A DNA stretch of 64,000 bases, from IMG/VR virus record IMGVR_UViG_3300025655_005747, one strand, 5' to 3'. This DNA is from an uncultured virus (IMG/VR IMGVR_UViG_3300025655_005747) (lineage: Duplodnaviria; Heunggongvirae; Uroviricota; Caudoviricetes). Shown here one piece after another: positions 36,898 to 63,764 of this stretch. Under the pieces are notes generated by a model that saw only the letters and a program-made list of their open reading frames with translations, had not been told where the DNA came from and searched no databases. Each line of letters starts with the position of its first letter. Position 1 is the stretch's first letter. The position numbers were made by a program, and so were the translations under genes.

Positions 36898-38694
36898 ATG
36901 TCTAAAAATCAAAAGAAACTTCTTCCAATAGATTATACTCATCGCGACTTTGAAACAATACAGCAAGATCTATTGGAGATAGCAGAGAGGTTTTATCCGG
37001 ATTCTTTCCAAGACTTCAGCGAGGCTTCTTTTGGTTCGCTCATGATAGATGCGGTTTCATATGTTGGTGACCAGCTTTCTTTCTACCTTGACTATAACGT
37101 CAATGAGTCATTCTTAGATACAGCATATCAGTACAGCAACGTCGTTCGCCATGGCGCAGTGCTTGGGTATAAGTTCACAGGTCGGCCATCTACATATGGC
37201 GAGGTTGCGCTTTTCATATTAGCTCCTGCTACTACCGCTGGTATCGGACCAGATACTGATTATCTACCGATATTGAAGCGCGGCACAGTTATGGGAACTG
37301 ATAACGGCTTAAGTTTTGTATTAACCGAGAACGTTGATTTTGCAAACCCAACAAACACATTTGTAGTGGCGAGAACGGATCCATCTACGGGTGCTCCAAC
37401 CTTTTATGCAGTTAAAGCCTACGGTAAAGTGGTTTCTGGAAACTTTGGACAAGAAAGAATTGCTGTGGGTGCTTTTGAAAGATTCAGGACAGTAACTTTG
37501 GAAGCACAAAATGTTGCTGAAATCATATCTGTGTTTGATACCGAAGGCAACGAATATTTTGAAGTTGATTATCTTGTGCAAGACACAATTTTTAAAGAAA
37601 TACCAAATTCCAATTTCCAGAACGATAATGTACCATCGATCATAAAGCCGACCTTGGTTTCCAGAAAGTTCGTAACTCAGATGATTAGAGATACCGTCAC
37701 CCTTCAATTTGGTAGTGGAAAGCTGGCTAACTCAGATGTCGTTGCTAATCCACAAAACTTTGCTGTAGATGTGTTCGGAAAAACATACACAAACACAACG
37801 ACATTTGATCCAAGCCGTCTTAGCCAAAACGATAGTTTTGGAGTTGTGCCGACAAACACCACACTTATTGTAACTTACAGAACAACAAACGGTATCAATT
37901 CGAATGTTGCTACCGGTGGAATTACCAACGTCATAACAGCAAACTTTGATTTTAATAATAGAGACACACTTGTTACATCAAAGGTTAGAGCAGTTGAGCG
38001 CTCGATAGAGGCAACAAACGAAGAGCCAATAACTGGCGATGTTGCATATCCGACCACAAATGAAGTAAAACAAAGAATTTACGACACTTTCCCCACACAA
38101 AACAGAGCGGTAACACAGGCAGACTACGAAAATTTAGCTTATCGCATGCACTCGAAGTTCGGCGCTATCAAGAGATGCTCCGTCCAAAAGGACTTAGATT
38201 CGCAAAAGAGAAACCTAAACATGTATGTTGTATCGGAAGATACCGCTGGCAAGTTAGTTTTGGCTAACTCAACCATTAAAAATAATTTAAAAACATGGCT
38301 GAATCAATATAGAATGATCAATGACACAATCGATATTCTCGATCCGTATATATTGAACTTCGGTATAAACTTTGTCGTCAAGCCACAAAAAATGTCTGAT
38401 AAGTTTATTGTTATAGATAACTGCGTCGAGGCTTTAAGAAGACATTTCGAACAGCCGCTTTTTATTGGAGAAGCATTGTACATCAGTGATATTTACAAAG
38501 TCCTCAAGGACGTGACTGGTGTATTAGACGTAGTGAAGGTAAATGTCTTTCTTAAGAGCGGCGGAAATTACTCAACCGCATCTATCGATATAAACAAGAA
38601 CATTTCTCCTGATGGTTCATATTTAGCAGTCCCGAACAATGCGATAATGGAACTTAAGTTCCCCGATGTTGATATAATAGGAAAGGTTAGGTAA
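36898..38694 (+). CDS. Baseplate wedge subunit, T4 gp6 / baseplate-J-like
   Basis: DYTHRDF, DFSEAS.G, YVGD.LSFY.D...NESFL.TA, LQFGSG and QNRAVT..DY. Confidence 0.9.
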   Translation: MSKNQKKLLPIDYTHRDFETIQQDLLEIAERFYPDSFQDFSEASFGSLMIDAVSYVGDQLSFYLDYNVNESFLDTAYQYSNVVRHGAVLGYKFTGRPSTYGEVALFILAPATTAGIGPDTDYLPILKRGTVMGTDNGLSFVLTENVDFANPTNTFVVARTDPSTGAPTFYAVKAYGKVVSGNFGQERIAVGAFERFRTVTLEAQNVAEIISVFDTEGNEYFEVDYLVQDTIFKEIPNSNFQNDNVPSIIKPTLVSRKFVTQMIRDTVTLQFGSGKLANSDVVANPQNFAVDVFGKTYTNTTTFDPSRLSQNDSFGVVPTNTTLIVTYRTTNGINSNVATGGITNVITANFDFNNRDTLVTSKVRAVERSIEATNEEPITGDVAYPTTNEVKQRIYDTFPTQNRAVTQADYENLAYRMHSKFGAIKRCSVQKDLDSQKRNLNMYVVSEDTAGKLVLANSTIKNNLKTWLNQYRMINDTIDILDPYILNFGINFVVKPQKMSDKFIVIDNCVEALRRHFEQPLFIGEALYISDIYKVLKDVTGVLDVVKVNVFLKSGGNYSTASIDINKNISPDGSYLAVPNNAIMELKFPDVDIIGKVR

Positions 38695-40292
38695 TGGCGA
38701 TATTAAGGTATACAGCAAGCGCTGATAATACAATTGTAAATGCTTATCAGCCTAACTTAACAACACGTGGTACGGGCTCAAACGCAGGTCAAGCAGATGT
38801 ATTGGAGACATACTCGATATACGGTCGTCAGCAAGCGTCTAGCTCTGCTACCAGCGGCTCACAAGAGTTGTCTAGAATTCTTATTAAGTTCCCAATAACG
38901 GACATCACTGCCGACAGATCAGCCGGTAAGATACCAGCATCTGGTTCAGTTAACTTCTATCTTAAGGTCTACAACGCAGAAACAAGCAAGACTGTCCCAA
39001 GGAACTACGCACTTGAAGTGCTTCCGATCGCCCAAGACTGGCAAGAAGGTAGTGGACTCGATCTTGAAAACTATTCTGACCTTACCAGAGGAAACATTGG
39101 CTCAAACTGGATGTCTGCTTCAAATTCTTCCCAATGGTTACGTCCGGATGGAGAGCAGATTATTGGCGGATCGTATTTGACTGGAGCTTCAGATCCTCAG
39201 TTCAAACAAACTTTTGCTAGTGGTTTAGAAGACTTAGAGATTGATATTTCTCCTCTCGTTGAGCATTGGATAGCAGGTACTAAAGACAACTATGGTGTTG
39301 GAATCATGCTTTCATCATCATACGAAGCATATTATTCGGCATCGAATGACGAAGGGTATGATCCTTATTATACAGGTAGTATCTTGAACAATACCGGTGG
39401 CGCTACAACTTCATATTACACAAAGCGCTTCTTTGGTCGCGGAACGCAATATTTCTTTAAGAAGCCTATTATTGAAGCCCGTTGGGATTCCGTAACAAGA
39501 GATGACCGCGGCGATTTCTACTTCAGCAGTTCGTTAGCACCCGGTCCTGATAACTTAAACACACTTTACTTATACAACTACGTTCGTGGTAAATTAACAA
39601 ACATTCCTGCGATCGGATCGACAGGCTCTATCATGGTGAGTTTATATTCTGGTTCGTCAGATAACTCACAGCCTTCTGAAAAACTTACGCTTTACAACGG
39701 CGCTACTGCGGTTACAGGCGGGTTTGTTTCGACAGGTATATATTCTTGTTCAATAGCGATAACTGGAACACTCAGTGATATAACAACGCTTTATGATGTG
39801 TGGTTCTCTGGTTCTGGTGAGGATCCATCGACAAACAATACAGAGTTCTATACTGGCTCTATCAGTGCGAAAGCTTTCTCGGCAACGTCTAACACTCGCG
39901 AGCCAGTGTATTTTATAAACATAACTAACTTGCAAAACAGATACAGCCCAACCGAGACCGCTCGATTTAATTTATATGTAAGAAACAAGAACTGGAATCC
40001 AACGATCTATACCAAGGCTGTTGCAACACCGGAGCACGTCCCAATCGTGAGTGCTTCATATCGTGTTGTTAGGATCATCGATGCACTGGAAGCGGTACCT
40101 CATAACACAGGAAGCGATTTTGCAACTGGTCTGTCTTATGATGTGTCTGGTAACTACTTTGACTTTAACATGAAGTTACTTGAGCCAGGGTACGAATACG
40201 GCTTTAAGTTTGCTTTTTACGATGACGAACTTTCTTCTTGGTTAGAGCAAGACAAGATATTCAAGTTCAGGGTGGCGGGTAATGAGTATTAA
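38694..40292 (+). CDS. Virion structural protein (beta-rich, S/T/G-rich)
   Basis: Coupled to gp6 (TAATG). ADNTI...SRILIKF...W.EG.G...NYG pattern of beta-sandwich baseplate proteins. Confidence 0.7.
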   Translation: MAILRYTASADNTIVNAYQPNLTTRGTGSNAGQADVLETYSIYGRQQASSSATSGSQELSRILIKFPITDITADRSAGKIPASGSVNFYLKVYNAETSKTVPRNYALEVLPIAQDWQEGSGLDLENYSDLTRGNIGSNWMSASNSSQWLRPDGEQIIGGSYLTGASDPQFKQTFASGLEDLEIDISPLVEHWIAGTKDNYGVGIMLSSSYEAYYSASNDEGYDPYYTGSILNNTGGATTSYYTKRFFGRGTQYFFKKPIIEARWDSVTRDDRGDFYFSSSLAPGPDNLNTLYLYNYVRGKLTNIPAIGSTGSIMVSLYSGSSDNSQPSEKLTLYNGATAVTGGFVSTGIYSCSIAITGTLSDITTLYDVWFSGSGEDPSTNNTEFYTGSISAKAFSATSNTREPVYFINITNLQNRYSPTETARFNLYVRNKNWNPTIYTKAVATPEHVPIVSASYRVVRIIDALEAVPHNTGSDFATGLSYDVSGNYFDFNMKLLEPGYEYGFKFAFYDDELSSWLEQDKIFKFRVAGNEY

Positions 40293-43200
40293 GGATTTGT
40301 TTGGTAGGCAAGTCCTATCTGATAAAAACAAAAAAGATTTAGCATCAGACATAGAATCAGCAGACAACTTAAAGGCGATTAAAACAAAGCAAGACTCCTT
40401 TGTCCCGCAGGTTGATTACGATAATCCTGATACGTTTGCTAAATACGGTTCTGCAAATCTGTATTACAAAAGCGCGATTGAACGTATTATCAACTACTAT
40501 CCATATGATGGTTCTGATGCAGAGATAAACACTTTCTACAATAAGTCTCTTGATATAGAGAAATATATTTTTGATAAAAAATATCCGCGCACAACAGGAT
40601 ATATAAAATTATCTACAGCCGGTACATCAACATCTATTGTGCGTAATGGTTATGGGCTTCCAACAACTCTTGAATATATTACTTTTAATGGCGGACCTAA
40701 CACGGTTTCAGAAACCGGAAAACTCAGCACTTTAATTCCTGATCCAACAAATAGCAAGTTTCAATACAACAACTTATATGACGACAACTTATACGTTAAT
40801 AATGGTTATCCATCTGACTACGGCTCTGGAACACGCGAATCTAACTTAAAGTCAGACTTTGATACCGGCGTGACGGTTGAATTTTGGACATCAACAGGCT
40901 CCATTGAGATTTCTAGCACAGAAAAACAAGTTGTTTTTGATATGTGGAACAATAACGCCAGTTCTAGTGCTGATTATGGTCGCATCACAATTGAGTTAGA
41001 TGGTACTGCTGCCGCTAGCCCGTGGTTAATTACGGTCCAGTCTGGCGCAACAGGAATTTTTCAACAAACTTTAGGACAAGAACTCAACTTAAACAGTTTA
41101 GAAGATTGGAAACATTATGCATTTGTTTTCCAAAACTCGGGCTCTGATTTCCATGCCAAACTTTATGTTAATGGAGAACTAGAAGATACAAACATATATA
41201 CGTCAACTACAATTGGAGAACTTACTCCAAATGCAATGCAAGGGCGCCTCGGTGCGCTATTAACAGCGCCGGCAACATTAGCTGTTGGGGGCGTTCTACC
41301 ATCGGCATACATCGGCGCCGGTAAACTCAGTGGTTCTATCGATGAGTTTAGATTTTGGAAGACTGCGCGCAATGCCGAACAAATTGGTAGAAACTGGTTT
41401 ACTCAAATACGTGGTGGCGTCAACACCGACATCGCTAACACAACGCTGGGTATGTATTACAAGTTCAACGAAGGTATCACAGGCACTTCAAGCATTGATA
41501 GTGTTGTTCTGGACTACGGTGGTCGTGTTTGTAACGGTACTTGGACAGGCTACTCTTCGGTGTCTAGAAATACTGGTTCTGCTATTGTGTCTGCATCCGC
41601 AGCCAACTTCGAGTATTTAGACCCTATTATTTATGATACTCACCCAGATGTAGTAACACTCAAGAGTGATCTTGAAGCGAAGGGGCTCTATCACGATCGC
41701 CAAAACTCAACACAATTTATTAATCTTATTCCATCATGGGTTCTCGAAGAAGTGCAAAACGATGGCGGCGCAGACGGAGATAGCGATCTTGAGAAGCTTT
41801 CTCATATCATGGGTGCATACTTCGACAAATTATACTTACAGATCTCAGCATTACCAAAACTGAGACACGAACAATATACAAGTTCTTCTTACAAACCGCT
41901 TCCTTTCGCACAACATCTTCCGGAATCATTAGGCTTAATGATGCCTGAGATTTTTGTTGACGGGAATGTGTTAGAAAAGTTTGCAAACAGAAATGATTCT
42001 GAGTTGTATGAAAGCGAACTCAACGATACCAAGAATATCATCTATCAGAATCTCTATAACAGTTTAACTTCGATATACAAATCTAAGGGCACAGAAAGAT
42101 CAATTAGAAATGTATTGAGATGTTTCAATGTTGATGATAACTTGGTTTATTTTAAGACGTATTCCGATAATCAAACTTATGAACTGAACACAAATGTCAA
42201 GCAAACACTCAAGAAAAAGAAAAGACTAAACTTCAATACTGCGTCTGCCGCGCATGCTGTGATGTATCAAGACGCCGATCCGGCTATTCCAGATTCGCAA
42301 GGCTTTATAACAGGCGGTACTGGTCAGCCTGCAATCGACGGAGTACCGGCAGGTGTTTCTTCGGCAACAGGTTCACAAGATAGATACGGCTTCACGGTAG
42401 AGTCTAGCATCTACTTCCCTAGATTCTTTAACATTGCAGACTCTTATCAAAGAAACTTCTTCACAGCATCTCTGTTTGGTATGCAGACGGTCTTTACGGG
42501 CTCGACTGGTACTGGATATGCCGGCGGCACAACATCGCTTACAGGTGCTCAAGACATCGCAAACTTCCAAGTGTATGCTATCCGAGATGACTTAAACTCT
42601 AGAAATGTTCGGTTTAAATTAACTTCGTCCTTCGATCCTCACCCGTTCGATGCATTAGAGTCGCAAACATTTATGAGTGCGTACAACTCTGAAAACTGGA
42701 ACTTATCTGTTGGTTTGCGCCCGACTAAGAAGTTCTCAGGCTTTGTCTCGGGTTCCGATGATTATGCTTACGAGGTTGTTTTCAGGGGCTTCAACAATAA
42801 GCTGGGAACAATAAACAACTCGTTTGCTGTTAGTGCATCAATAACTGCTGAAGCTGGAAAGAACATGATTCGTTCTAACAAGCGTTTGTATGTTGGTGCT
42901 CAAAATACAAACTTAACTGGTGCTAACGTATATCCTTGTGACGTTGAGTTTAATGGCTTAAAATATTGGACTCAATATATTGATGACTTGAGTCTTAAAC
43001 AACATTCTCTGGATAGAGAAAATGCAGGTATTTCAGGATCTTACCAAAATACATCACCATTTGATAGCGAGAACACAACGCACGATGTCTATAACTTAAA
43101 CGCCCTCGCGCTTAACTGGCACTTCGGAACTATCACAGGTTCAGACTCATCCGGAAATTTCTACTCAACAGACATCAGTTCGGGTTCTGCTTTTGTGAGA

Positions 43201-46200
43201 GACAACTTTGGCTGGAACGCCAAGATATCTGGATATCCACATCCCGGTAAGGGTCATGGCTTTAGAGCCAGTAGCGACATTGTGGTCAATAATGAGTTGG
43301 TAAACGAATACAAGTTTATTGATCCAGAGTTGGTAACATCTGATGATATGGTAAATGTGCTCGATGCTGATGATGAATTGTACGGCTTGTTTGATGAAGT
43401 GCCGTCATATGTTCACACTGTAGAGAAGAGTTTATACGCTGCAATATCAGAAGAAATACTTGACTATTTTGCCGGCGCAGTCGATTTCAACAATATCATT
43501 GGCGATCCAGTTCATCGTTATAGAGAAAATTACAAACCACTCGAAACTTTAAGAGAAATTTACTTCAAAAAGTTCAACAATATCCGAACTGTTGAAGCAT
43601 TCACAGAATACTATAAGTGGTTTGACGACGCAATTGCAAACATTATTGAACAAATTGTCCCAGCATCAGCAAACTTTGTAGGCGATGCTTATAACGTTGT
43701 CGAGAGCCACATACTAGAAAGACCAAAATACAAGTCACAGTTCCCAACCATAGAGTTTAAAACACCAGAACTGGAAGCAAGTCTTGCCGGGGCCGAAGCA
43801 TTAAGGTTATCTTACATTGATGATTTGTTTGGTGGCGTCGAGGCATCTCCTCGTCCGACAAATATCCATAAGAACTATTGGAAAAAGCGCGCCCAACCCG
43901 GAGCGAGAGGTACCGGCTCGTTTGAGATTTCTTCCGGAGACGCTGAAGTTGATGCGCAAAGAGTAAAATTAAGAAACATCATGCACAGCAGACCAGCATT
44001 TTCAGCGTCAAATGCGACACTGTCTCAGGCTGACGGCACAACTTATCAAAGAAACCATCGATTACAAACACAACTAGGCGGTACAGTTAGTTTTGGAAAC
44101 TCTGAGTTAAACAGAACCATTAAGGGTGGCGTTAACTTCCCACCAAACAAGAGTTTCGCATTCGCATATGCGTCAACATACCCTGCTGGCCCCGTTAACA
44201 CCACCGATGGTGTTTTCATTCCTGAAAACGTTCTGCTTGGCTTCACGGAAGATTTTACTCCAATAGACAACATAGAACAGTGGAACGAAGAAGGAAACGT
44301 TGGCAAGAAGCGCCATCGTACAATTGGTGTTGTTCAAGGTAGAGACTATGACGGCGGATATAACTATACAAATATAAAGAGCAATTTTGCATTCCCATTC
44401 AACATAATGAGCGGCACCATCAAGGGTGGAGCAGATGATTATATTTCTGCACGCCTTTCGTCGAGCGTCACAATCACAAACTTACACAACGATGTATATG
44501 GTGACGAACTTGAGAAGCCAATGCAAGGACCATTCACGGAATACGCTGTTGGTGGTCATCAGTCACGACACGTTAGCCTGAACTCTGGCTCCGACGACTA
44601 CACTAATAGAGCAGAAGCATGGAAGATCCTCTTGGGTCTTCGTGGTCCTTGTCCGGGCGACGTATGGTTGTCTGGTGCGATCGGCTTAGTCAGTGCCGAC
44701 TATCCATGGCCAGAAGCAAACGAAGTTGGCGAAACGCCTTATCCGATGACTGCATCTCACAAAGCAGTTTACTATCGTGACTTTGTTGCAAAGCGCCCAG
44801 TTAACATTCGTAACATTCTTATGCGTACTGGCTCAACGATCCTTGGAAACTACGAGCATAACTATGAAGTTGTTCACTCGTTTGATACATACGCCAACCC
44901 AAGACAGTTCATTGAAACGCAGCCAGCACTTCCAACACAAATATTCCAAAATAACTCAACAAGTTCAACGCAGACAAGAACATTCTTAGATCTACACAGA
45001 ACTGATGAAGGACACTATCAGTTTGTTGACGAGTATAACACTCACTACCTCACAGGCACAGCAAACAAGTCTATCATTGCTACTCGTTTTAGCACCGTTG
45101 GTGGGGCACTTACAGATGGAACAGGATACAGAGACTTCCGCTCTAACACGTTCTCTCCTTACAACGCTATTAATAACAGATATTTAACAGTCATTAAACC
45201 CTCTCAGGGACCGTCTGGGAGCATTTCAGAAGCGACAGGCAGTGGTACCACCGGTATTCGTGTATACGACATCCACGGCAAAGACTACGGTCTTAACTCG
45301 CATTATGCTCGCCACACTGCTCGCTTCGGTCGCGACTCACTTTTTGTGACTGCTCCGGGCACATCATATGAAGAACTCCCCGGTTTCCACAAGACACATA
45401 GAAATAACATATGTGGTCTCCGTGTCCTTTCCACAAACATTGACCATGTCGACCTCGATGGCGACAATAACCCAGATGCCTACCAAGAAATTTCAACTAT
45501 CGGCAACAAGCCACTTTACGACAACTTTAATATCCAACACCAGATCCCTCGCGACACAAGACAATACGCTTGGATCGCTGCTTCGCTTGAATCGACAGCA
45601 TCGTGGTGGAGTTGTGGCTTTACTCCTGCAAGGTTCGAAATCAGAAGCGGTTCAACCATGATAGAGCCTCTCAACTTTGTTAGTGCGAGCGAAGTTGGAA
45701 GAAATATTGTAGGAATCTCGACGATCTGGTTCCCTAGATATGCTAATCAGCCTGGAACCTATGTTAATGCATTCGTTCCGCAGACCCCTGGGATAAACTC
45801 AAATATTTATGAACCACTGACGGCTTCAACTAACACTTTGGGCTATCCCACATCGATTCCTCTGACGGACACGACAGAAGCCAATACACAATACTTGAAC
45901 ACTTCTAATATAGGTTTAGTACTAGGTGGCGTCGTATCTGATGGTCCAGCATTTAATAACCTAATGTGGAAGCGAGGCAACCAATATGCCGGCGCAAACT
46001 GGGTTCGCATGCGTCAAGGCGATCATCCAATATTAGTTAACGAGAGAAGAAACAACACACTCTCGACAATATACACAGGCAGTGCTTTGAGGCACTTCGC
46101 TTTGCCTCCAGTTTCCACAAAGGGCCGCCCAGTCCTGCTTAATATGGACTACGCCAACTCGTTCTCTACGTCAGTCGGCGGCTACCGCGAGCAAGTAGAA

Positions 46201-49200
46201 AACGTAACACTTCAAACAACTTACAACAATGAGATGATCGGCTTCAATGAGCAAGAATTAAACACATTTGCTAACATTAACTTTGATAGCGAAGTAACTT
46301 CGTTCGAACAACTTGTTGCGATGAGAGCGAGAAACAACATCAACTTAAACTGGATTGTTTACTCAGAGAACTTGTTCCCCTCGGCTAGAAGAGAGTTTAT
46401 TTCCTCCTCTACGACTCGTGTTGGATACGACAACGCATTCTGGCGCGATACCATCGAAAACAGAGTAACAGGCGGAATGGGTGTGCCGAACTCTCTTGGA
46501 GTTGAAAATTACTTTACTCCGAGTTCTACAGATCCCGATGGTGCGGTAAGATACATTACACAAAGTATTTGGCCTCTTGATGAACCTTCTGACTTTGAAA
46601 CTAGAACTGCACCCCCCATTGTTTTCTACGATGGATCTGACTATTATGAATCATCTCTGATTGTATCAAATAGTGCTGGAGAATTACAAAACACATACAG
46701 TTTATATCACTTTAATACATCTATATTGACGCTTCAGAAGCGTCTCGATATCGGCAGCACTATCAGAAATGCAGGATTATATTCTCGTAAGCACATGCTT
46801 AACTCCCCACTGTCGGCATTTAACCCAGTTGGTATATCATCATCTACAAATAACTTAGTAGACGGCATGGAAGCAAACAACACACGCCTTGCGCTTCCTT
46901 CTGAACCTGTTGCTGCTGGTGTGACTGCTTCGTTTGCTACGGGCTCTGGTGAGGCCGCATGGCAAGCACCGACACTTGCCGGTTATCTTACAACATCGAA
47001 TGGTGTTGTTGGCTTTGTTTCTAGTCCGTCTAAGCCTTGGTACAACGACTATGACGACTTCCGTTACGATATCAAGACAATGGCCAAGGGCTACGGAGTC
47101 GTACCAGAGTTCAGAGTTTCGGAACAAATTGAGAAATATGGTAAGGTTGGTATCGATGGCGAGATATTCGATTACTTGGAGATCCCCGGAACGAACTTAA
47201 GCAGTTCACAAGACACGTTCTACAAAGACTACTCCAACTCTGACTTCATGCAAAACTTCTTGGACATTAAGGGTATGTCTGGACTGAAAGCATCTGAAAT
47301 CAGACTTACCTGCAAGGCTGCAATTAAATTCAACCCATATAAGGGTTTCTATCCGGCGCAAAGAACATTAGATCTAGTAAGTCAGTTCTCAAGGTCTTAC
47401 GCTGATAGTATATCGTTTAGTTATACCGGTCCCGGTGGCACTGATTGGGGCACTATCGCTGATTCAAGGAATATACAGTTTTCATTTACAAGACCTTTGA
47501 TCCAGCCTCTTTTCGCGCCCGGAATTATGTATAATTCGATTAAATCTGGATTGGCGGTTGATTATCCAGTTGTTACAAATGGCTGGAAGGTTTTAAATCA
47601 GCTTGTAACTGGTGCTGCTGATGCATCGGGAGATTATCCAGAAAACTATATGATAGCATCTACATTCTCTTCTAGTGTGGATATTGGCGGCGGAAGCTCT
47701 GATTATACATCTGGCGCTTTCTGGGATTTAAGGGTTCCTTTTGAAGCGATTATGAACCCAGCTAGATATCTTAATGGTGTTTCGCTGCCGGATATTGAGC
47801 CTCATCCCAAATCACGAGTTCCAATCACGATATCAGCATCTTTGAATGCACAAAATGCCGGCGAAGAATATAACAGAATGTCTTCAAACTTCTTTGCAGA
47901 AGTCGGAAAGTTCTTCTTACAAGGTGGCGATTACACCAAACTTCGCTCAACTGGTGTTGATTTAGGTAAGAAAAAGTTCACCGGTGAAGAGGTATACGGC
48001 GCTCGTTTAAGGATGAGAACATCCTACGAAGGTTCGCGAACTTATGAAAACGAGGTTGGCTCAGACGGCACCAACTATTTCTATTCAGCCAATGGTGCTC
48101 AGGCATTCTTTAAGAATTACACGACTGCTAGTACTCCCGCCGCCTCGGAAATCACCGGCATTTCTGGCTCATATGAATTACCACAAGATCCAGAAAGACA
48201 GACTAGCTTTAAACACAACTTTGTTATGTACAGCAGGCCCACAGCGTTTGGTCCAGCGGTTTCTGGTCGCCAAGATGTATATGAATTGCTGCCCGGAAGA
48301 GTTGCGAGTGCAGATACTGGTGGCATAGAAGTCTCAGGTTCTGATTTCAACTTATCAGCATCAGCATATGGCGTGAAAGACTCTCTCAACGGCTACAACT
48401 GGTCGTTCACGCCCCCATACTACTACGGCGAAGCTTGGGTTGACTTTATTTTCAGACCATCTGCTAGTGTTGAATACGATCTCACAAGAATCTTGGCTGA
48501 AACAAGAATTGTTAAGAGAAGGTATGATCCCGGCTCCGATATGGTAGGACACAAAAAGATAGAAGGATTTTATTGTCGCACTTTGCACCGAGACCAAGCA
48601 ATGATATGGTCTGATTCAGGGTCTTTAGATAGTTACTTCGATAGTTTTTCGCAGATTGTTCCATCGGAAACAAATTTTGGAAGCAACTTCACACCATACG
48701 CTAGTGAAAACATCAACGACAATGCAATGCAGTTGGACTCATGTCTTAACTTATTCGGTATTGAATACGAACAAAAAGCAAAAACCAACAAGTTCGGCTT
48801 ACAAATATCAAAGGACAACGAGCAAGCAAGCCAAAGATGGGTTATTCAGCCTAAGTTTGAGACCCCAATGATGAACTTTGCCGACTCTGGCGTAAGACCA
48901 CTAACAACCGATAATGTTACGATACCACAAAACTTTGGATCGGAATCAGTACCACGAGGTATGTGGCATCAATTTGGAACACTTCCAAGTTCACGTACAG
49001 AAGGCATCTTCATGGAAATCGGAGATATTCCAGCAAACTGGCTTAAGAACCATTACGAAGTTGTGACTGGGTCATCAATTTACAACAATTACGCTGCTAG
49101 CGGTGATCCAAACCTCTACAAGAACATGAAGTCATTCTCTAAACTTTGTGGCTTTGATGAGAACAACTCAAGCGTAAGACTTGGTGAAGTTGCCGATAGA

Positions 49201-50061
49201 CAAACAATTCGAGAAGCAGTTGTTGCTATTCCGTATCTGGTCGAAGGTTTGACGGAGGGTGAAACACAACCCACAACAGAGAACGCCAAGACTAGAAAGA
49301 GGTTTATTAACATTCCAACGAAGAGATGGAAAAACGCTCGTCAAGAAGAAGAAGGCAGCATTGAAGGAGATTCGCTCAACACTGCTGGAGCATCTATCCG
49401 CCGTCTTGCGGAGCAGATGGAAAGATACGTGCTTCCTCCGCAGTTTGACTTCTTGAACAATAAAGACATTGACCCGATCGCTATGTATATCTTTGAGTTC
49501 AAGTATGAGTTGGACAAGAATGATCTTGCTTACATCTGGCAAAACCTTGCACCAAGAGGATATGAAAAGGCTACATTCGAGAAAGATATGGTTGCGCACG
49601 AGCTTCTGAACACAGAGTTGCTTACGGAGCAAAACCTGTTATCTAACCCGAACTTGCGATGGATGGTGTTCAAGGTCAAGCAAAGAGGACAAACGCTGTA
49701 CCGAGACATGATCACTGGTCAAATCGACGAGTCCACCTTCCAGCCCGGTTTTGCTGAAAACGATGCAAGCGGCTATCCTCTACTGTATAACTGGCCATAT
49801 GACTACATTTCCATTGTCGAAACAATCAACTTTGATGTAGATGTTAAATACGATAGAGAAACAACCAAGAAAATGAAGTCAGATACGATGAGAAACATCG
49901 GCGCCCAAAACCAAATTCTGAATAAGAAACAACGTGGACCGGGCATGACTATGAAGAAATTGGATAAGAAACAAGTTTCAAAAGAAATTCCCGATAAGGG
50001 AGTAAAGCCAAAGTCGGCTAGTAAACGCTCTGCTCGTACATCGACAAAATATAGAAAATAA
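40282..50061 (+). CDS. Giant baseplate/tail protein (3259 aa) with LamG-like domains and a gp7/P2-I-like segment
   Basis: LamG motifs TVEFW, WKHYAFV, LYVNG and GSIDEFRFW. IYKSKGTERSIRNVLRCF resembles the KGT motif of gp7/P2 gpI wedge proteins. Confidence 0.75.
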   Translation: MSIKDLFGRQVLSDKNKKDLASDIESADNLKAIKTKQDSFVPQVDYDNPDTFAKYGSANLYYKSAIERIINYYPYDGSDAEINTFYNKSLDIEKYIFDKKYPRTTGYIKLSTAGTSTSIVRNGYGLPTTLEYITFNGGPNTVSETGKLSTLIPDPTNSKFQYNNLYDDNLYVNNGYPSDYGSGTRESNLKSDFDTGVTVEFWTSTGSIEISSTEKQVVFDMWNNNASSSADYGRITIELDGTAAASPWLITVQSGATGIFQQTLGQELNLNSLEDWKHYAFVFQNSGSDFHAKLYVNGELEDTNIYTSTTIGELTPNAMQGRLGALLTAPATLAVGGVLPSAYIGAGKLSGSIDEFRFWKTARNAEQIGRNWFTQIRGGVNTDIANTTLGMYYKFNEGITGTSSIDSVVLDYGGRVCNGTWTGYSSVSRNTGSAIVSASAANFEYLDPIIYDTHPDVVTLKSDLEAKGLYHDRQNSTQFINLIPSWVLEEVQNDGGADGDSDLEKLSHIMGAYFDKLYLQISALPKLRHEQYTSSSYKPLPFAQHLPESLGLMMPEIFVDGNVLEKFANRNDSELYESELNDTKNIIYQNLYNSLTSIYKSKGTERSIRNVLRCFNVDDNLVYFKTYSDNQTYELNTNVKQTLKKKKRLNFNTASAAHAVMYQDADPAIPDSQGFITGGTGQPAIDGVPAGVSSATGSQDRYGFTVESSIYFPRFFNIADSYQRNFFTASLFGMQTVFTGSTGTGYAGGTTSLTGAQDIANFQVYAIRDDLNSRNVRFKLTSSFDPHPFDALESQTFMSAYNSENWNLSVGLRPTKKFSGFVSGSDDYAYEVVFRGFNNKLGTINNSFAVSASITAEAGKNMIRSNKRLYVGAQNTNLTGANVYPCDVEFNGLKYWTQYIDDLSLKQHSLDRENAGISGSYQNTSPFDSENTTHDVYNLNALALNWHFGTITGSDSSGNFYSTDISSGSAFVRDNFGWNAKISGYPHPGKGHGFRASSDIVVNNELVNEYKFIDPELVTSDDMVNVLDADDELYGLFDEVPSYVHTVEKSLYAAISEEILDYFAGAVDFNNIIGDPVHRYRENYKPLETLREIYFKKFNNIRTVEAFTEYYKWFDDAIANIIEQIVPASANFVGDAYNVVESHILERPKYKSQFPTIEFKTPELEASLAGAEALRLSYIDDLFGGVEASPRPTNIHKNYWKKRAQPGARGTGSFEISSGDAEVDAQRVKLRNIMHSRPAFSASNATLSQADGTTYQRNHRLQTQLGGTVSFGNSELNRTIKGGVNFPPNKSFAFAYASTYPAGPVNTTDGVFIPENVLLGFTEDFTPIDNIEQWNEEGNVGKKRHRTIGVVQGRDYDGGYNYTNIKSNFAFPFNIMSGTIKGGADDYISARLSSSVTITNLHNDVYGDELEKPMQGPFTEYAVGGHQSRHVSLNSGSDDYTNRAEAWKILLGLRGPCPGDVWLSGAIGLVSADYPWPEANEVGETPYPMTASHKAVYYRDFVAKRPVNIRNILMRTGSTILGNYEHNYEVVHSFDTYANPRQFIETQPALPTQIFQNNSTSSTQTRTFLDLHRTDEGHYQFVDEYNTHYLTGTANKSIIATRFSTVGGALTDGTGYRDFRSNTFSPYNAINNRYLTVIKPSQGPSGSISEATGSGTTGIRVYDIHGKDYGLNSHYARHTARFGRDSLFVTAPGTSYEELPGFHKTHRNNICGLRVLSTNIDHVDLDGDNNPDAYQEISTIGNKPLYDNFNIQHQIPRDTRQYAWIAASLESTASWWSCGFTPARFEIRSGSTMIEPLNFVSASEVGRNIVGISTIWFPRYANQPGTYVNAFVPQTPGINSNIYEPLTASTNTLGYPTSIPLTDTTEANTQYLNTSNIGLVLGGVVSDGPAFNNLMWKRGNQYAGANWVRMRQGDHPILVNERRNNTLSTIYTGSALRHFALPPVSTKGRPVLLNMDYANSFSTSVGGYREQVENVTLQTTYNNEMIGFNEQELNTFANINFDSEVTSFEQLVAMRARNNINLNWIVYSENLFPSARREFISSSTTRVGYDNAFWRDTIENRVTGGMGVPNSLGVENYFTPSSTDPDGAVRYITQSIWPLDEPSDFETRTAPPIVFYDGSDYYESSLIVSNSAGELQNTYSLYHFNTSILTLQKRLDIGSTIRNAGLYSRKHMLNSPLSAFNPVGISSSTNNLVDGMEANNTRLALPSEPVAAGVTASFATGSGEAAWQAPTLAGYLTTSNGVVGFVSSPSKPWYNDYDDFRYDIKTMAKGYGVVPEFRVSEQIEKYGKVGIDGEIFDYLEIPGTNLSSSQDTFYKDYSNSDFMQNFLDIKGMSGLKASEIRLTCKAAIKFNPYKGFYPAQRTLDLVSQFSRSYADSISFSYTGPGGTDWGTIADSRNIQFSFTRPLIQPLFAPGIMYNSIKSGLAVDYPVVTNGWKVLNQLVTGAADASGDYPENYMIASTFSSSVDIGGGSSDYTSGAFWDLRVPFEAIMNPARYLNGVSLPDIEPHPKSRVPITISASLNAQNAGEEYNRMSSNFFAEVGKFFLQGGDYTKLRSTGVDLGKKKFTGEEVYGARLRMRTSYEGSRTYENEVGSDGTNYFYSANGAQAFFKNYTTASTPAASEITGISGSYELPQDPERQTSFKHNFVMYSRPTAFGPAVSGRQDVYELLPGRVASADTGGIEVSGSDFNLSASAYGVKDSLNGYNWSFTPPYYYGEAWVDFIFRPSASVEYDLTRILAETRIVKRRYDPGSDMVGHKKIEGFYCRTLHRDQAMIWSDSGSLDSYFDSFSQIVPSETNFGSNFTPYASENINDNAMQLDSCLNLFGIEYEQKAKTNKFGLQISKDNEQASQRWVIQPKFETPMMNFADSGVRPLTTDNVTIPQNFGSESVPRGMWHQFGTLPSSRTEGIFMEIGDIPANWLKNHYEVVTGSSIYNNYAASGDPNLYKNMKSFSKLCGFDENNSSVRLGEVADRQTIREAVVAIPYLVEGLTEGETQPTTENAKTRKRFINIPTKRWKNARQEEEGSIEGDSLNTAGASIRRLAEQMERYVLPPQFDFLNNKDIDPIAMYIFEFKYELDKNDLAYIWQNLAPRGYEKATFEKDMVAHELLNTELLTEQNLLSNPNLRWMVFKVKQRGQTLYRDMITGQIDESTFQPGFAENDASGYPLLYNWPYDYISIVETINFDVDVKYDRETTKKMKSDTMRNIGAQNQILNKKQRGPGMTMKKLDKKQVSKEIPDKGVKPKSASKRSARTSTKYRK

Positions 50062-55755: not shown

Positions 55756-55780
55756 ACCGAATTGATATTTTATCATAAAC

Positions 55781-55788: not shown

Positions 55789-55806
55789 TTCCAAAGAGGA
55801 TACAGA

Positions 55807-56379
55807 ATGTTACTTAGGACATCCATAATAAAGCCAACAAAAGCTCCGATTAGTTCTAAAAGAAATAGAAAACAAATCTTTATAGACAAGATTGTTGATC
55901 CCGCAAAAGAACCTACGCTGTTCAATATTGAGTCAGCAAGGATGAGTGTTGAAGCTAAAACTGGTCCAATTCAAGATATTAAAGAATTAAGAAAACCAAA
56001 ATCAATCAAAAGTAACAGAAGAGATGTAGTTGCACGCGAAACACTCGCAAAACTCAACGTCACAGCCACTCAGCACACAGAGACGTTTTCTTTATTAGAA
56101 GACAATTCAGATAAAAACACAGTTCGCAATTATAGAATTATGGATGTTAAAGATTTTGAGAACACAATAAATTTACAAGTGGTTGCAAAAGATAAGTTCC
56201 CTCATAATAATGACCCGTTTTATCAGTTAGATGAGTCTATCCGCACACCGCGTGTTTATAAAACCGTAACGACTTCTGGTGGTGACTTCAAGAGAGAGCC
56301 AGACTTATCTTTTATTCTATCTAATTTAACAATTTTAAATCAAAAATCTACCTATCACGGTAAATCTAAGTACTTCTAA
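55807..56379 (+). CDS. Hypothetical basic protein
   Basis: 190-aa ORF with a GAGGA RBS. Confidence 0.7.
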   Translation: MLLRTSIIKPTKAPISSKRNRKQIFIDKIVDPAKEPTLFNIESARMSVEAKTGPIQDIKELRKPKSIKSNRRDVVARETLAKLNVTATQHTETFSLLEDNSDKNTVRNYRIMDVKDFENTINLQVVAKDKFPHNNDPFYQLDESIRTPRVYKTVTTSGGDFKREPDLSFILSNLTILNQKSTYHGKSKYF

Positions 56380-56395
56380 GGAGAATTGCTAAACA

Positions 56396-60267: not shown

Positions 60268-60277
60268 AAAAACCAAT

Positions 60278-60285
60278 ACTATTTA
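60278..60285 (+). promoter_or_regulatory. ACTAnTTA candidate phage promoter motif
   Basis: ACTATTTA in an intergenic gap, followed by GAGG and ATG 60303. Confidence 0.45.
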
Positions 60286-60302
60286 TTGAGAGAGGAAATT
60301 AA

Positions 60303-61328
60303 ATGGCATTTTTAGATAACTCTGGCGACATTATATTAGACGCCGTACTCACAGATGTGGGTAGAAAGAGAATGGCTGCTGGTAACTTCAGAATCACCAA
60401 GTTTACTCTCGGTGATGATGAGATTGACTACAGTCTGTATAACAAAGATCATCCATCTGGTTCCGCTTACTACGATCTGGAGATTTTGCAAACACCGGTC
60501 CTTGAAGCGTTTACCCAGCAAAATGCTGCAATTAATTATGGTCTTGTGTCTTATGCTAGACAAGACTTACTGTACATTCCCTCTGCTACAATTAACGAAA
60601 AAACCTTCAACCCAAGAATCGCATCTCGTTCTACAAGCAAGAACGTCTTCTTCTTGGCTGATAACACAAAAACAAACGCTTCCGGCGTACCAACAAGCAA
60701 AGTTATGACCGCTACAGACAGCGTTCCCGAAGCAAACATTTTGATTAGTTCGGACACTGCTGGTAGGTTTATTATGATTGAGACTGGAATTGATAGCACA
60801 GATCTTGCTGCCTCTTCAACAAACCAAGCAACATACATTACCTCTGTTGGTTTAATGGATAGTGGTTTCATGGTTAGGTTTGATAATAGATTTATTCAAA
60901 CTGTCTTGGGAGCAAACTCAGGCGGACAGTTTTCAAATGGTACTCAGCAAGGAGCAACCCTTCAGGTCTCACTTGGTGGCTCTGGAAACACAAGAAGATC
61001 TCCTTCACTGAAAAACTACAACGAAGCGACTATTGGAGCCGCAGTAAACAGAGTGTACTCTAACGTCGGCACAACCGGCACCACTGTAGATTCCAGTACT
61101 CAGTATTCAGCAGTTACAGGTCCACGCGGCGCCTTCACTGCACTAAACTTTTTGATTAGAGGCGATATTACCCAAACGGACTATGTTAAGTTTGGTACAA
61201 CTTCTAACGACCTTTTCGGCAGCGGACAATTGTATGACTTTATTGATACTACTGTCTATGTACAAGGACTTGCAAGTAACGCCAATATCCAGTTGCCTAT
61301 CAGAATTATCAAATTGGCTCAGACATAA
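60303..61328 (+). CDS. Virion structural protein (baseplate/tail-collar associated)
   Basis: MAFLDNSGDIILDAVLTDVGRKRMA.G.F.ITKF.LGDDEIDY N-terminus. Confidence 0.7.
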   Translation: MAFLDNSGDIILDAVLTDVGRKRMAAGNFRITKFTLGDDEIDYSLYNKDHPSGSAYYDLEILQTPVLEAFTQQNAAINYGLVSYARQDLLYIPSATINEKTFNPRIASRSTSKNVFFLADNTKTNASGVPTSKVMTATDSVPEANILISSDTAGRFIMIETGIDSTDLAASSTNQATYITSVGLMDSGFMVRFDNRFIQTVLGANSGGQFSNGTQQGATLQVSLGGSGNTRRSPSLKNYNEATIGAAVNRVYSNVGTTGTTVDSSTQYSAVTGPRGAFTALNFLIRGDITQTDYVKFGTTSNDLFGSGQLYDFIDTTVYVQGLASNANIQLPIRIIKLAQT

Positions 61329-61341
61329 ACGGAGAAAATGA

Positions 61342-62433
61342 ATGCCTGTTTCTTATGAACCCTTAAACGTAAACACAGATGTAACAACAACTAAGACGAT
61401 CCTTCATGAGGTCATCCCCTTAACAGGTACAATCATCAACAGTGGTACGTATAACAACGAAAACATCAAAAACTATACACACGGCATGTTCCAGTCTGTA
61501 TATGACTATCCATATTTAAGTTCTTCTGCAAACCATATCTTTGATATCACATGTGGATACGACGAAAGTTCAGCACTTTCGGCATCTACAAACGTGCAGA
61601 ACAGCAAGAAAATTAATATGTACAACCAGTTCTCTCAAGTTCTGCTTGGCTACACTGGTTCTGCTAACACGGTTAGATTGTTTGAGAATGACCTGAAGTT
61701 GGATCAAACAGGTTCGATGAAAAACGTCATGGTAGTTTCATTCTCGCGTTTGATTACCAAAGACCAAATCAAGAAAGGCACCTTCTCACTTCAATTAGGT
61801 ACCGGTCCCTGGGGCGACAGGCACTCTGAGACAGTCACTCTCCAAGATATCAGTGCATCAACAAACGGCGACGGCACCACAAACACAATCGGTGGCGACT
61901 ACGGTGTTCTTTATGCGACTTCCGGACTTGCTACTGGTTCTGTTCACGGTAACGCTCATGGTGTTATTTTCTATCAAGCAGGTATTGCAGTTATCTCTTC
62001 GTCAGTTTTTGATATGTCGGCATCTACTGGCTACGGTCAGTTCGCTTCTGGGGCTGCGACCGCATTTACGTCTTCTCTTGGTCCTGCTCTTGGTTGCTCC
62101 GCTTCGATCGCTACCGGTTCTATCTCAAGTTCCGCTGATGCACTGAGAGAAAGAGTTACAAACCTTACGTTCAACAACTCGACAGAGATAAATTCAACGA
62201 TCTATTTCTGTAGACTTCCAGTCAACAAGTTCAACTACAGCGCAAACCCAACATATCTTTCCGCTAGTAAACTTAGAGTCAAGAATGAGGCAGGAGACTT
62301 ACCTGTATCATATGTGACTACTGTTGGTCTCTACAACGCACGTAACGAACTTCTGGCGGTTGCTAAGTTGTCTGAGCCGCTCAAGAAGACCCCACAAAAC
62401 GAGTTGACGATCAGAGTAAGATTGGATTACTAA
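61342..62433 (+). CDS. Virion structural protein with a tail-collar-like C-terminus
   Basis: FNYSANPT...YVTTVGLYNARNELLAVAKLSEPLKK...IRVRLDY. Confidence 0.7.
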   Translation: MPVSYEPLNVNTDVTTTKTILHEVIPLTGTIINSGTYNNENIKNYTHGMFQSVYDYPYLSSSANHIFDITCGYDESSALSASTNVQNSKKINMYNQFSQVLLGYTGSANTVRLFENDLKLDQTGSMKNVMVVSFSRLITKDQIKKGTFSLQLGTGPWGDRHSETVTLQDISASTNGDGTTNTIGGDYGVLYATSGLATGSVHGNAHGVIFYQAGIAVISSSVFDMSASTGYGQFASGAATAFTSSLGPALGCSASIATGSISSSADALRERVTNLTFNNSTEINSTIYFCRLPVNKFNYSANPTYLSASKLRVKNEAGDLPVSYVTTVGLYNARNELLAVAKLSEPLKKTPQNELTIRVRLDY

Positions 62434-62435
62434 AA

Positions 62436-63764
62436 ATGTCTTTCCGTAAGTTTGGCCCAAATGATATTGTGCTGAACACAATGAGGGCATTTCCACAAGT
62501 ACGCTTTGACGTGTATAACTTCAAAGTATACTACAATAACACGCCGCATCAATCGGGTGCCTTCTCGGATAATATACTTGGTATGTCGTCAAGTTTACCG
62601 GGCGCCACTCGCTCAGGTACTGACGGCGGCATCAGTCTGCACGAATATAATATAGATCGCAAAGGAACAACTACGTTACAACCTGATGGAACATTGATAA
62701 CAACTGGACAAAACCCGCCGATAATTCCATATATCACAAAAGATTCTGCTCGTGCCTCATTCAAAACCGTTGGTAAAACAAGTTACAACAATGAATTTCG
62801 CTATGGAGACACGCTGTATTCAGATTATCCGCTGACTGCGTCTATAACGCGAGAGTTTATGTACCCTAACGCAGGTGCAAGAGAGTCTGTTTATAATACG
62901 TTTGATAGCGATAGAGAATTTTTAAGCGGTGGTGCTCCAGTATATCGTCATTTCTATGCACTCAAAAACAGACTTGATAGTTATGGTTACATGAGTCAGC
63001 ATTATGTTGTTTCTTCCTCTCTTGGTTGGAACAAGGCAGAACAAACAATCAACATGATCAGCATCCCATCTATATTCTATGGCTCAAGAATACAGGAAGG
63101 TTCCGTATCTCTTAGATATTATGTTAGCGGAACACTGCAAGCAGAGTTAAGAGACGCAAAAGAAAACGGAGAGTTGATACAGTACTCAGGAACTATGTCT
63201 TCTGCAAACGATGGAGACGTAGCGGGTGTGGTACTTTATAACGAAGGTATCATTCTTCTTACGGGTTCTTGGGAAATAAATGACCAAGAACTGCCGTTAA
63301 TTGATGGCGCCACCGGTGGAGATGTGGTAACTTCAAAGTGGATTTACTTCGGTGTCGGCGCTAATGATATTATTAAACCAAATGTGATCAACGCCGATTT
63401 TGCTTCAGCATCATTCGAGATATTGTTTAACGGACAGACCGAGACACAAGTTCAAACAATGTTTGCGCACGCAAGAAGAGGCGAAGTAAACTACTCAAAC
63501 AACCCAACGTTCTTACAGTATGGTCAGGATCAATTGTTTACAACAAGTTCAATGGTATACGAAGAGAACCCAAACAGAAAAATAAAGAACACGGTGTCTT
63601 CTAGTTTCGCGACATTCGATGCGCCTTTCAAAAGACAAGTATACATTTCCAGAGTCGGCATATACGACAAAGACAAAAACCTCATTGGAGTCGCAACGTT
63701 AGCCGATCCGATCTTAAAAGAAGAAGGTGATGATTACACCTTTAAGTTGAAGTTAGATATATGA
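62436..63764 (+). CDS. Virion structural protein, paralog of 61342..62433
   Basis: G.V.YNEGI, NYSNNPT...YISRVGIYDKDKNLIGVATLADPILK...FKLKLDI. Confidence 0.7.
   Translation: MSFRKFGPNDIVLNTMRAFPQVRFDVYNFKVYYNNTPHQSGAFSDNILGMSSSLPGATRSGTDGGISLHEYNIDRKGTTTLQPDGTLITTGQNPPIIPYITKDSARASFKTVGKTSYNNEFRYGDTLYSDYPLTASITREFMYPNAGARESVYNTFDSDREFLSGGAPVYRHFYALKNRLDSYGYMSQHYVVSSSLGWNKAEQTINMISIPSIFYGSRIQEGSVSLRYYVSGTLQAELRDAKENGELIQYSGTMSSANDGDVAGVVLYNEGIILLTGSWEINDQELPLIDGATGGDVVTSKWIYFGVGANDIIKPNVINADFASASFEILFNGQTETQVQTMFAHARRGEVNYSNNPTFLQYGQDQLFTTSSMVYEENPNRKIKNTVSSSFATFDAPFKRQVYISRVGIYDKDKNLIGVATLADPILKEEGDDYTFKLKLDI

What the first reader, a model, noticed from the sequence alone, without database searches (positions are those of the whole stretch)
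38694..63764. [S/T]-[G/A/S]-S tripeptide saturates a subset of virion proteins: candidate glycosylation sequon
Seen in sequence: TGS/SGS/SAS/TAS/SSS/TSS recurs as dispersed single copies, often after a hydrophobic residue (YTGSI, FSGSG, VSASY, ISGSY, LTAST). Approximate by-eye counts are ~16 in 38694..40292 (532 aa), ~45 in 40282..50061 (3259 aa), ~13 in 61342..62433 (363 aa) and ~7 in 62436..63764. There are only ~0-3 each in the neighbouring 2269-aa, 1532-aa and gp6 proteins. The codons vary, so this is a protein-level motif and not a DNA repeat. Established: some mycobacteriophages and giant viruses glycosylate virion proteins with their own glycosyltransferases. Inference: the tripeptide is an acceptor sequon for O-glycosylation by the adjacent 20-gene glycan cluster, giving a densely glycan-coated baseplate. 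I know of no described phage sequon of this type.
Basis: partly seen in the sequence, partly recalled or inferred. Interest (0 to 1): 0.85.

Follow-up and report, generated by a model that had tools for sequence, protein, structure and literature searches.

The report
Phage tail sugar-attachment tag
Outward-facing tail proteins of this marine phage and its relatives carry a Ser/Thr-small-Ser tag about four times too often, and the tag fades in relatives that lost their sugar-building genes, so it probably marks where a phage-made sugar coat attaches, though no chemistry shows this yet.

Summary
In detail: [S/T]-[G/A/S]-S occurs 16, 48, 13 and 7 times in four tail-region proteins, against 3.3, 11.9, 2.6 and 1.6 in shuffles. 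In 17 orthologs picked by homology it is 323 against 89, with enzyme-like rules: S/T only at position 1, S only at 3, Pro almost never next. It is clade-wide (immuto, Mel-JY01, hundreds of marine contigs) and lies on the outer sheath domains. Two GT4 genes (6865, 8145) are the only cluster genes shared by motif-rich genomes; a model supports a heterodimer (0.77, best control 0.00). In four sister comparisons, lineages that lost the glycan cassette have fewer motifs; one with an empty locus has none above chance (1.14x against 3.34x). Against: lineages that keep only the pair are weakly enriched, a pelagiphage without the pair reaches 1.7x, and no glycan is shown. Best reading (0.62): an internal sequon for phage-encoded O-glycosylation of the virion. 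The scan noted the same motif before on two other genomes. A cultured relative (immuto) makes it directly testable.

The parts
38694..40292 (+). 532-aa tail-region protein right after gp6; 16 motifs. Baseplate role inferred from position only
   Evidence: no family hit; orthologs 8 to 15 motifs in G002-G005, 0 in G071
40282..50061 (+). 3259-aa tail-region protein with a LamG domain (residues 194-368); 48 motifs
   Evidence: orthologs 46 to 51 motifs in G002-G005
61342..62433 (+). 363-aa clade-marker protein; 13 motifs; no known fold
62436..63764 (+). 442-aa paralog of the 363-aa protein; 7 motifs
6865..8145 (+). GT1: GT-B fold, GT4-type glycosyltransferase, core gene of the clade; its last 8 residues dock on GT2 in the model
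8145..9449 (+). GT2: second GT4-type glycosyltransferase (longest frame opens at 8094); complete GT-B fold, nearest solved structure chlorovirus B736L
9446..25364 (+). Variable glycan cassette, 18 genes: further transferases (GT2 family, GT1_2, GT29-like), epimerases/dehydratases, aminotransferases, cytidylyltransferase, DHQS-like and SIS proteins
   Evidence: content differs between relatives
6096..6857 (+). PD-(D/E)XK nuclease gene; left marker of the glycan slot
26319..27053 (+). Conserved 244-aa gene; right marker of the glycan slot (no family hit; 'sigma-like' is my recalled label)
36515..38694 (+). gp25 and gp6 baseplate wedge genes; gp6 is a motif-poor control (1 vs 1.0)

Best explanation
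The tripeptide, more fully (hydrophobic)-[S/T]-[G>A>S]-S-(not Pro), is the acceptor sequon of a phage-encoded protein O-glycosylation pathway. Shown: the motif, its rules, its restriction to certain virion-region proteins, and its decline where glycan genes are lost. Inferred: the conserved GT1-GT2 heterodimer adds the first sugar(s) to a hydroxyl of the motif on unassembled tail subunits in the host cytoplasm; the swappable cassette behind it makes donor sugars and extends the chain; selection for a dense coat on baseplate, sheath and fibres keeps adding sites, and relaxes when the cassette is lost. Which hydroxyl is the acceptor is open (I lean 55:45 to position 1, with the Ser at position 3 as recognition residue, by analogy with N-X-S/T). 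The coat most likely shields the particle or tunes adhesion.
For: Rules in 17 held-out orthologs: 323 vs 89 (10-residue local shuffles: at most 128 in 200); position 1 S x3.4, T x3.9, the other 18 residues x0 to 1.4; position 2 G x5.4, A x3.4, S x2.5; position 3 S x3.6, T x1.1; Pro follows at 2 of 323 sites; no Asp before. Columns swap within the class and are gained or lost whole in 121 homologs. Sheath: 63 vs 22.1 in the outer part, 2 vs 7.1 in the core for 7 clade sheaths; 16 vs 11.3 in 8 others. GT1 and the 363-aa protein occur in the same 7 of 50,697 phage records; GT2 is in 18 of 18 records at least 90% complete (3 of these were picked through GT1). Only GT1 and GT2 are shared by all motif-enriched genomes. 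Density by locus state in 91 records: full cassette median 2.37 per 100 aa (n=81), pair only 1.00 (n=9), empty 0.13 (n=1). Four separate reductions on the tree, each below its sister: 1.14 vs 3.34, 1.55 vs 3.80, 1.88 vs 3.66, 2.72 vs 3.36, same order in families not used for the tree. LR756508 has GT1 but no GT2 and shows 1.08x; its GT1 lacks the docking tail. GT1-GT2 model: score 0.77, best of 3 controls 0.00, runs agree in at least 93% of contacts, partner pLDDT at least 87; the mark was reached by 116 of 157 solved and 2 of 215 mismatched pairs. Nearest structure of both is a viral transferase, chlorovirus B736L.
Against: No glycan has been seen. Nine records keep an intact-looking pair yet eight of them are only x1.1 to 1.9 and the ninth x2.7, so the pair is not sufficient. 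The empty-locus case is one 67-kb fragment (37% complete) on a long branch, sister support 0.86; the genes could sit elsewhere. LR756508's group is strongly acidic (D+E 15 to 19%), a confound. Four contrasts give only p = 0.06 by sign test. Cassette size shows no positive trend among full loci (rho -0.20). HTVC008M lacks the pair but reaches 1.70x, with one 2001-aa protein at 24 vs 9.9; P-SSM2 has one protein at 20 vs 7.8. Mel-JY01 also enriches [ST]GT x3.6 and has a split GT1. RM378 has the pair (GT2 very divergent) but its sheath (2 vs 1.7) and 363-aa homolog (1 vs 1.2) are not enriched. Of 13 sites on the 363-aa model 7 are all coil, 2 all helix, against 58% coil overall. B736L itself has no known acceptor (PMC9614988, passages). 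That the four window proteins are in the virion is inferred from gene position.
Confidence: 0.62

Rival explanations
1. The motif is modified, but the initiating enzyme is not the GT1-GT2 pair: a transferase of the variable cassette, or a non-sugar or phospho-sugar transferase, reads it, while the pair has another acceptor.
For: Density follows cassette presence more than pair presence. Pair-only lineages have eroded motifs.
Against: No cassette gene of the window is shared by all motif-rich genomes (9446 profile absent from G085, G089, G107, immuto, Mel-JY01), yet the motif rules stay the same; pair-only lineages keep TGS and SGS at x2.1 to 2.4.
Confidence: 0.14
2. A structural or compositional habit: small hydroxyl residues in turns, strand ends and helix caps of beta-rich tail proteins; the link to the glycan locus reflects shared history, rate or habitat.
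For: Some sites are nearly invariant (SSS at 60 in 121 of 121); one LamG site lies on the conserved strand; HTVC008M 1.70x and single P-SSM2 proteins without the pair; motif-poor lineages tend to have long branches.
Against: The same folds exist without the motif: 28 of 150 family representatives have under 1 per 100 aa and three have none. Thr is not accepted at position 3 and Asn, Asp, Gly, Ala not at position 1, unlike capping preferences. It spans unrelated folds. T4, P-SSM2, 121Q, PAU and PTm1 give 0.72 to 1.21x. Long-branch G026 and G147 keep about 2 per 100 aa.
Confidence: 0.15
3. The cassette remodels the host surface or the DNA, as proposed for cyanophage clusters, and the motif is read by something else (a host enzyme, a decoration protein or a protease).
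For: Host-surface modification is the published reading of cyanophage clusters (PMC7824862, passages); the host is probably Bacteroidota, which have general O-glycosylation (recalled; host of this window not determined).
Against: The Bacteroidota motif D-[S/T]-[AILVMT] is not enriched (11 vs 15.8). immuto already carries a 7-deazaguanine DNA pathway. T4 DNA alpha-glucosyltransferase scores Z 17.8 vs 29.3 for B736L. P-SSM2, with its cluster, shows 1.16x. It does not explain the four contrasts.
Confidence: 0.09

Closest known systems
Mycobacteriophage virion glycosylation (Freeman et al. 2023; paper not readable; seen through citing passages in PMC12619734, PMC12894461, PMC12582341)
   Same: A tailed phage with its own glycosyltransferases that would coat its particle.
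   Different: There the glycans sit at the C-termini of capsid and tail tube subunits (PMC12619734). Here the sites are many, internal, on baseplate-region, sheath and fibre proteins; tube and portal are not enriched and the capsid only marginally.
Chlorovirus capsid glycosylation and B736L/A546L (PMC9614988, passages)
   Same: Virus-encoded soluble transferases and atypical sequons; B736L is the best sequence and structure match of GT1 and GT2 (E 2e-16 and 7e-6; Z 29.3, rmsd 3.1, 343 aligned).
   Different: N-linked on Asn (NTxT and others) of the major capsid protein of a eukaryotic virus; NTxT is 0 vs 2.1 here; B736L's acceptor is unknown.
GtfA/GtfB system of serine-rich repeat proteins (PMC6973325, passages)
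   Same: Logic: a conserved two-protein priming complex in the cytoplasm, Ser/Thr acceptors, a variable set of extending transferases. This is what it most likely works like.
   Different: GtfA is only a distant fold match (Z 17.2, rank 49); both phage proteins keep catalytic motifs; acceptors are dispersed tripeptides in globular proteins, not S-x repeats (SxSxS 6 vs 4.2); no secretion system.
Moraphages (PMC12619734; abstract, passages, section 11 part 1)
   Same: Large aquatic phages, predicted Bacteroidota hosts, four core glycosyltransferase groups, a Rhodothermus phage near them in the capsid tree.
   Different: The paper gives no acceptor or motif in the passages seen; whether this window belongs to that lineage was not tested.
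Bacteroidota general O-glycosylation, D-[S/T]-[AILVMT] (motif recalled)
   Same: Three-residue O-glycosylation sequon in the likely host phylum.
   Different: Different motif, not enriched here; acts on exported proteins (recalled), while virions assemble in the cytoplasm.

Membership tests
Phage-encoded virion glycosylation (mycobacteriophage type) | Phage encodes glycosyltransferases | tested here: met
Phage-encoded virion glycosylation (mycobacteriophage type) | Glycan on virion proteins shown chemically | not testable with these tools
   no proteomics or staining available
Phage-encoded virion glycosylation (mycobacteriophage type) | Acceptor at the C-terminus of capsid and tail tube subunits | tested here: inconclusive
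   the motif is internal and the four window proteins end in Y, K, Y, I; capsid and tube genes lie outside the window and their C-termini in relatives were not examined
GtfA/GtfB serine-rich repeat system | Two-protein priming complex | tested here: inconclusive
   model supports binding, 0.77 vs best control 0.00; a prediction, and GT-B dimers are common in solved structures
GtfA/GtfB serine-rich repeat system | Acceptor with alternating-serine repeats | tested here: not met
   SxSxS 6 vs 4.2; irregular spacing
GtfA/GtfB serine-rich repeat system | GtfA-family membership with DUF1975 | tested here: inconclusive
   no such Pfam hit; GtfA E 0.005 by profile, Z 17.2
Chlorovirus N-glycosylation | Asn sequons NTxT or N-X-S/T on virion proteins | tested here: not met
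   NTxT 0 vs 2.1; N-X-S/T 48 vs 57
Bacteroidota O-glycosylation | D-[S/T]-[AILVMT] enriched | tested here: not met
   11 vs 15.8; motif definition recalled
GT4 / GT-B glycosyltransferase (GT1, GT2) | Two Rossmann domains, Gly-rich loop, E-x7-E motif | tested here: met
   Pfam Glycos_transf_1 above cut-off; EGFG..E motifs; GT2 model pLDDT 92.5, Z 29.3
immuto / Mel-JY01 / RM378-like myovirus clade | Shared gp6, 60303, 61342 families and GT1 | tested here: met
Moraphages | Clusters with them in MCP, TerL and PolB trees | not tested
   genomes not at hand; markers lie outside the window

The most novel reading that the evidence does not exclude
A very large, widespread clade of aquatic myoviruses encodes a general, sequon-directed, cytoplasmic protein O-glycosylation system: a GT1-GT2 heterodimer reads [S/T]-[G/A/S]-S on any protein, swappable cassettes set the glycan 'serotype', and each virion carries hundreds to thousands of glycans on sheath, baseplate and fibres.
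Probability: 0.42. Interest if true: 0.88.

Novelty: new variant of a known kind. Interest (0 to 1): 0.74.

Why it matters
Phage virion glycosylation is known from few phages, and in the searches I ran no paper describes a phage sequon. If true, the many glycan cassettes of this clade get an acceptor, abundant marine viruses would be sugar-coated particles with effects on decay, adhesion and grazing, and a soluble two-enzyme system with a three-residue tag would be a simple glyco-engineering tool. A cultured member with 60 motifs in one tail spike (immuto) makes it testable with one proteomics run.

Tried and rejected
DNA repeat or codon artefact: rejected. Global or local Ser richness: rejected. 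Known sequons N-X-S/T, NTxT, D-[S/T]-[AILVMT], acidic-SG (14 vs 11.3): not enriched. The 9446 gene as universal initiator: rejected. Cassette size as a dose: no positive trend among 81 full loci. Fold of the 363-aa protein: no match by Foldseek (best T4 gp6, E 0.36) or VIA-align (best Z 5.2); model pLDDT 66, so surface exposure could not be judged. An alternative motif in LR756508: none stands out. No whole genome is held for the window; the nearest record is a 25-kb fragment. The 192-kb contig that encodes G071's protein was not found in metagenome or genome scans, so G071's other 63% stays unseen. 33 fragments without a GT hit also gave no PD-(D/E)XK hit (no positive control in that call) and were dropped as truncated. 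Of loci scanned, 2 of 155 and 3 of 150 had no family hit and were dropped. The IQ-TREE run timed out; FastTree was used. Freeman 2023 could not be read. No supplements were opened; the moraphage and immuto papers' supplements could bear on clade naming and virion proteomes.
Full report
Observation. The counts hold: 16, 48, 13 and 7 copies of [S/T]-[G/A/S]-S in 38694..40292, 40282..50061, 61342..62433 and 62436..63764, against shuffle means of 3.3, 11.9, 2.6 and 1.6, each at the floor p = 0.001; none of the other 39 of 43 genes tested is enriched. TGS, SAS, SGS and SSS are the top four of all tripeptides in the pooled proteins. The sites use 73 different 9-mers and all Ser codons, are irregularly spaced, and account for the whole Ser excess of these proteins (0.068 without them vs 0.069 in six neighbours).

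Context. The window is part of a T4-like myovirus: gp25 and gp6 at 36515-38694, a LamG domain in the 3259-aa protein, and a 20-gene glycan cluster at 6865-25364. The four proteins have no other family hit; their place in the virion is inferred from gene order. The 363-aa protein has homologs in 7 of 50,697 phage records: four immuto records, Mel-JY01, RM378 and LR756508. The first glycosyltransferase (GT1, 6865) hits exactly the same seven.

Motif rules. In 17 orthologs from four complete relatives, chosen by homology, there are 323 sites vs 89 expected; shuffling within 10 residues gives at most 128. Position 1 takes S (x3.4) or T (x3.9) and nothing else (x0 to 1.4); position 2 G (x5.4), A (x3.4), S (x2.5), with Cys at 4 cases; position 3 S (x3.6), not T (x1.1). 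The residue before is hydrophobic in 54% (background 32%) and never Asp; Pro follows at 2 of 323 sites. Among 121 homologs of the 363-aa protein, 120 exceed z = 2; single columns swap among SSS, TSS, TAS and SAS, and others switch between TGS and unrelated triplets. This is how a recognition motif behaves (inference).

Where it sits. In G002-G005 the same four families are enriched, plus sheath (9 vs 3.4 to 5.8), neck in three of four, and unnamed proteins near the head genes; portal, terminase, hub, tube and the orthologs of the 2269-, 1532- and 963-aa proteins are not, and the rest of each proteome matches expectation. In immuto the tail spike has 60 vs 20.4, gp215 17 vs 3.0, sheath 10 vs 4.0, and 138 non-structural frames 28 vs 40.7. 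In 7 clade sheaths, 63 motifs (22.1 expected) map to T4 gp18 residues 88-345 and 2 (7.1) outside; 8 other sheaths give 16 vs 11.3. That this range is the outward part is recalled; Pfam places the conserved sheath domains of immuto at 431-701, behind all 10 motifs. The capsid protein is marginal (1 to 5 per copy vs 1.1 to 2.2). The AlphaFold model of the 363-aa protein (pLDDT 66) puts 7 of 13 sites in coil and 2 in helix against 58% coil overall, which says little.

Outside controls. In all proteins with at least 15% Ser+Thr, a motif-blind set, the ratio is 3.25 for the window, 2.1 to 2.9 for G002-G005, 2.1 immuto, 1.9 Mel-JY01, 1.9 RM378; and 1.12 T4, 1.16 P-SSM2, 1.21 121Q, 0.72 PAU, 0.98 PTm1, but 1.70 for HTVC008M, which lacks GT1. 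So a weaker background exists in some marine tail proteins. Mel-JY01 also enriches [ST]GT (x3.6), and RM378's sheath and 363-aa homolog are not enriched although several of its other Ser/Thr-rich proteins are.

The transferases. GT1 and GT2 (8145) are adjacent in all 28 records where GT1 was found among 48; GT2 is in 18 of 18 records at least 90% complete, 15 of them picked through the baseplate protein. They are the only window cluster genes shared with immuto, Mel-JY01 and RM378; the third gene, 9446, is in 56 of 70 informative loci but absent from several motif-rich genomes. Both keep catalytic motifs. Their best solved match is chlorovirus B736L by profile and, for GT2, by structure (pLDDT 92.5; Z 29.3, rmsd 3.1, 343 aligned, next 25.9; GtfA 17.2, T4 alpha-glucosyltransferase 17.8). 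B736L binds GDP-mannose but has no known acceptor (PMC9614988, passages). A complex model supports binding: 0.77 vs best control 0.00, at least 93% contact agreement, partner pLDDT at least 87; 116 of 157 solved and 2 of 215 mismatched pairs reached the mark; GT-B dimers are common, so memory may contribute. GT1's last residues 419-426 pair with GT2 267-275.

Natural losses. In the window's subclade the glycan genes fill a slot between a PD-(D/E)XK gene and the 26319 gene. In 91 records with both ends known, the 363- and 442-aa families carry a median 2.37 motifs per 100 aa with a full cassette (n=81, minimum 1.16), 1.00 with the pair alone (n=9, maximum 2.14) and 0.13 with an empty slot (n=1, G071). 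These are not independent, so I built a tree with motif columns removed: four separate reductions lie inside full-cassette lineages. Over four families, enrichment is 1.14 vs 3.34 (G071 vs G107), 1.55 vs 3.80 (seven pair-only records vs G094), 1.88 vs 3.66 (G079 vs G134) and 2.72 vs 3.36 (G114 vs G089); the two families not used for the tree give the same order. LR756508, with GT1 but no GT2 in its whole record and a GT1 that lacks the docking tail, shows 1.08x and sheaths with 0 and 1 motifs; its 16 nearest family proteins have a median 0.42 per 100 aa, 40 vs 20, but are very acidic, a confound. Limits: G071 is 37% complete and long-branched, four contrasts give p = 0.06 by sign test, the pair alone does not sustain full density, and cassette size shows no positive trend. 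28 of 150 family representatives are motif-poor with unknown gene context; they show that the fold does not need the motif. The 153 loci all had 1.34 to 3.11 per 100 aa; 7 of 147 were at or below 1.0.

Mechanism. Most likely (0.62) the motif is an O-glycosylation sequon: the GT1-GT2 pair primes, the cassette supplies and extends, and the coat covers the outside of the tail. This works like the GtfA/GtfB pathway (conserved priming pair, variable extenders; PMC6973325, passages) without being a member. Rivals: another enzyme of the locus reads it (0.14), a structural habit (0.15), host-surface or DNA modification with an unrelated motif (0.09; PMC7824862, passages). Known sequons are not enriched.

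Novelty. Phage virion glycosylation is known (Freeman 2023, not readable; seen through passages of PMC12619734, PMC12894461, PMC12582341), with C-terminal sites. Nine searches (listings only unless named) and passages of PMC13738210 showed no phage sequon; subscription papers and supplements were not seen. The moraphage paper notes four core glycosyltransferase groups in a possibly related lineage but no acceptor. The scan noted the same motif on two other genomes and this clade's cassettes on six; these are unchecked notes, not support. Verdict: real, clade-wide, a new variant of a known kind, with comparative but no chemical evidence; interest 0.74.

Noticed in passing
G002 156816-159326 (locus L201): GT2 is 836 aa with an intein-like insert right after the catalytic HGEGF motif (starts with Cys; HN-C/S/T near residue 684). 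Inteins favour conserved sites of essential proteins (recalled).
   Followed up: partly
Mel-JY01 4747-8430 (L244) and 83441-84932: A 1227-aa protein joins a GT2-like GT4 domain, a weak TibC N-domain hit and a GT9 domain, next to a 508-aa protein with 24 motifs; GT1 is split into two frames.
   Followed up: no
LR756508 and P0271-P0286: An acidic (D+E 15 to 19%) motif-poor subgroup with GT1 alone, two sheath genes and a different cassette with GT29-like genes.
   Followed up: partly
G074, G076-G078, G080, G082, G084: Pair-only clade with a GT2 about 16 residues shorter in the N-domain; SAS and TAS not enriched, TGS and SGS x2.1 to 2.4, DGS 36 vs 15: possibly a shifted specificity.
   Followed up: partly
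window 17120-17995 and 20626-23458: A soluble GT29 sialyltransferase-like gene, and DHQS-like, aminotransferase III and SIS genes that suggest an aminocyclitol or heptose-type building block.
   Followed up: no
window 5371-6060: Weak Pfam hit to the ATLF domain below its cut-off (24.7 vs 27.4 bits); probably a zinc-peptidase-like fold; an ortholog is in G071.
   Followed up: no
HTVC008M 37918-43923; P-SSM2 18953-20746: Single proteins with 24 vs 9.9 and 20 vs 7.8 motifs in phages without the pair: background preference or genes taken from the clade.
   Followed up: no
RM378 Ser/Thr-rich proteins: Top tripeptides are TLS, TFS, SGS, TVS: beta-strand alternation, or a relaxed middle position with its divergent GT2.
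   Followed up: partly
G071 38853-40447 and 15685-24901 (L647-L649): Terminase large subunit and the 3259-aa ortholog each come as two frames.
   Followed up: no
window 61342-63764: The 363- and 442-aa proteins are paralogs with a shared C-terminal domain; Mel-JY01 has five copies; 3184 clusters at 50% identity match the family, which has no name or fold.
   Followed up: partly
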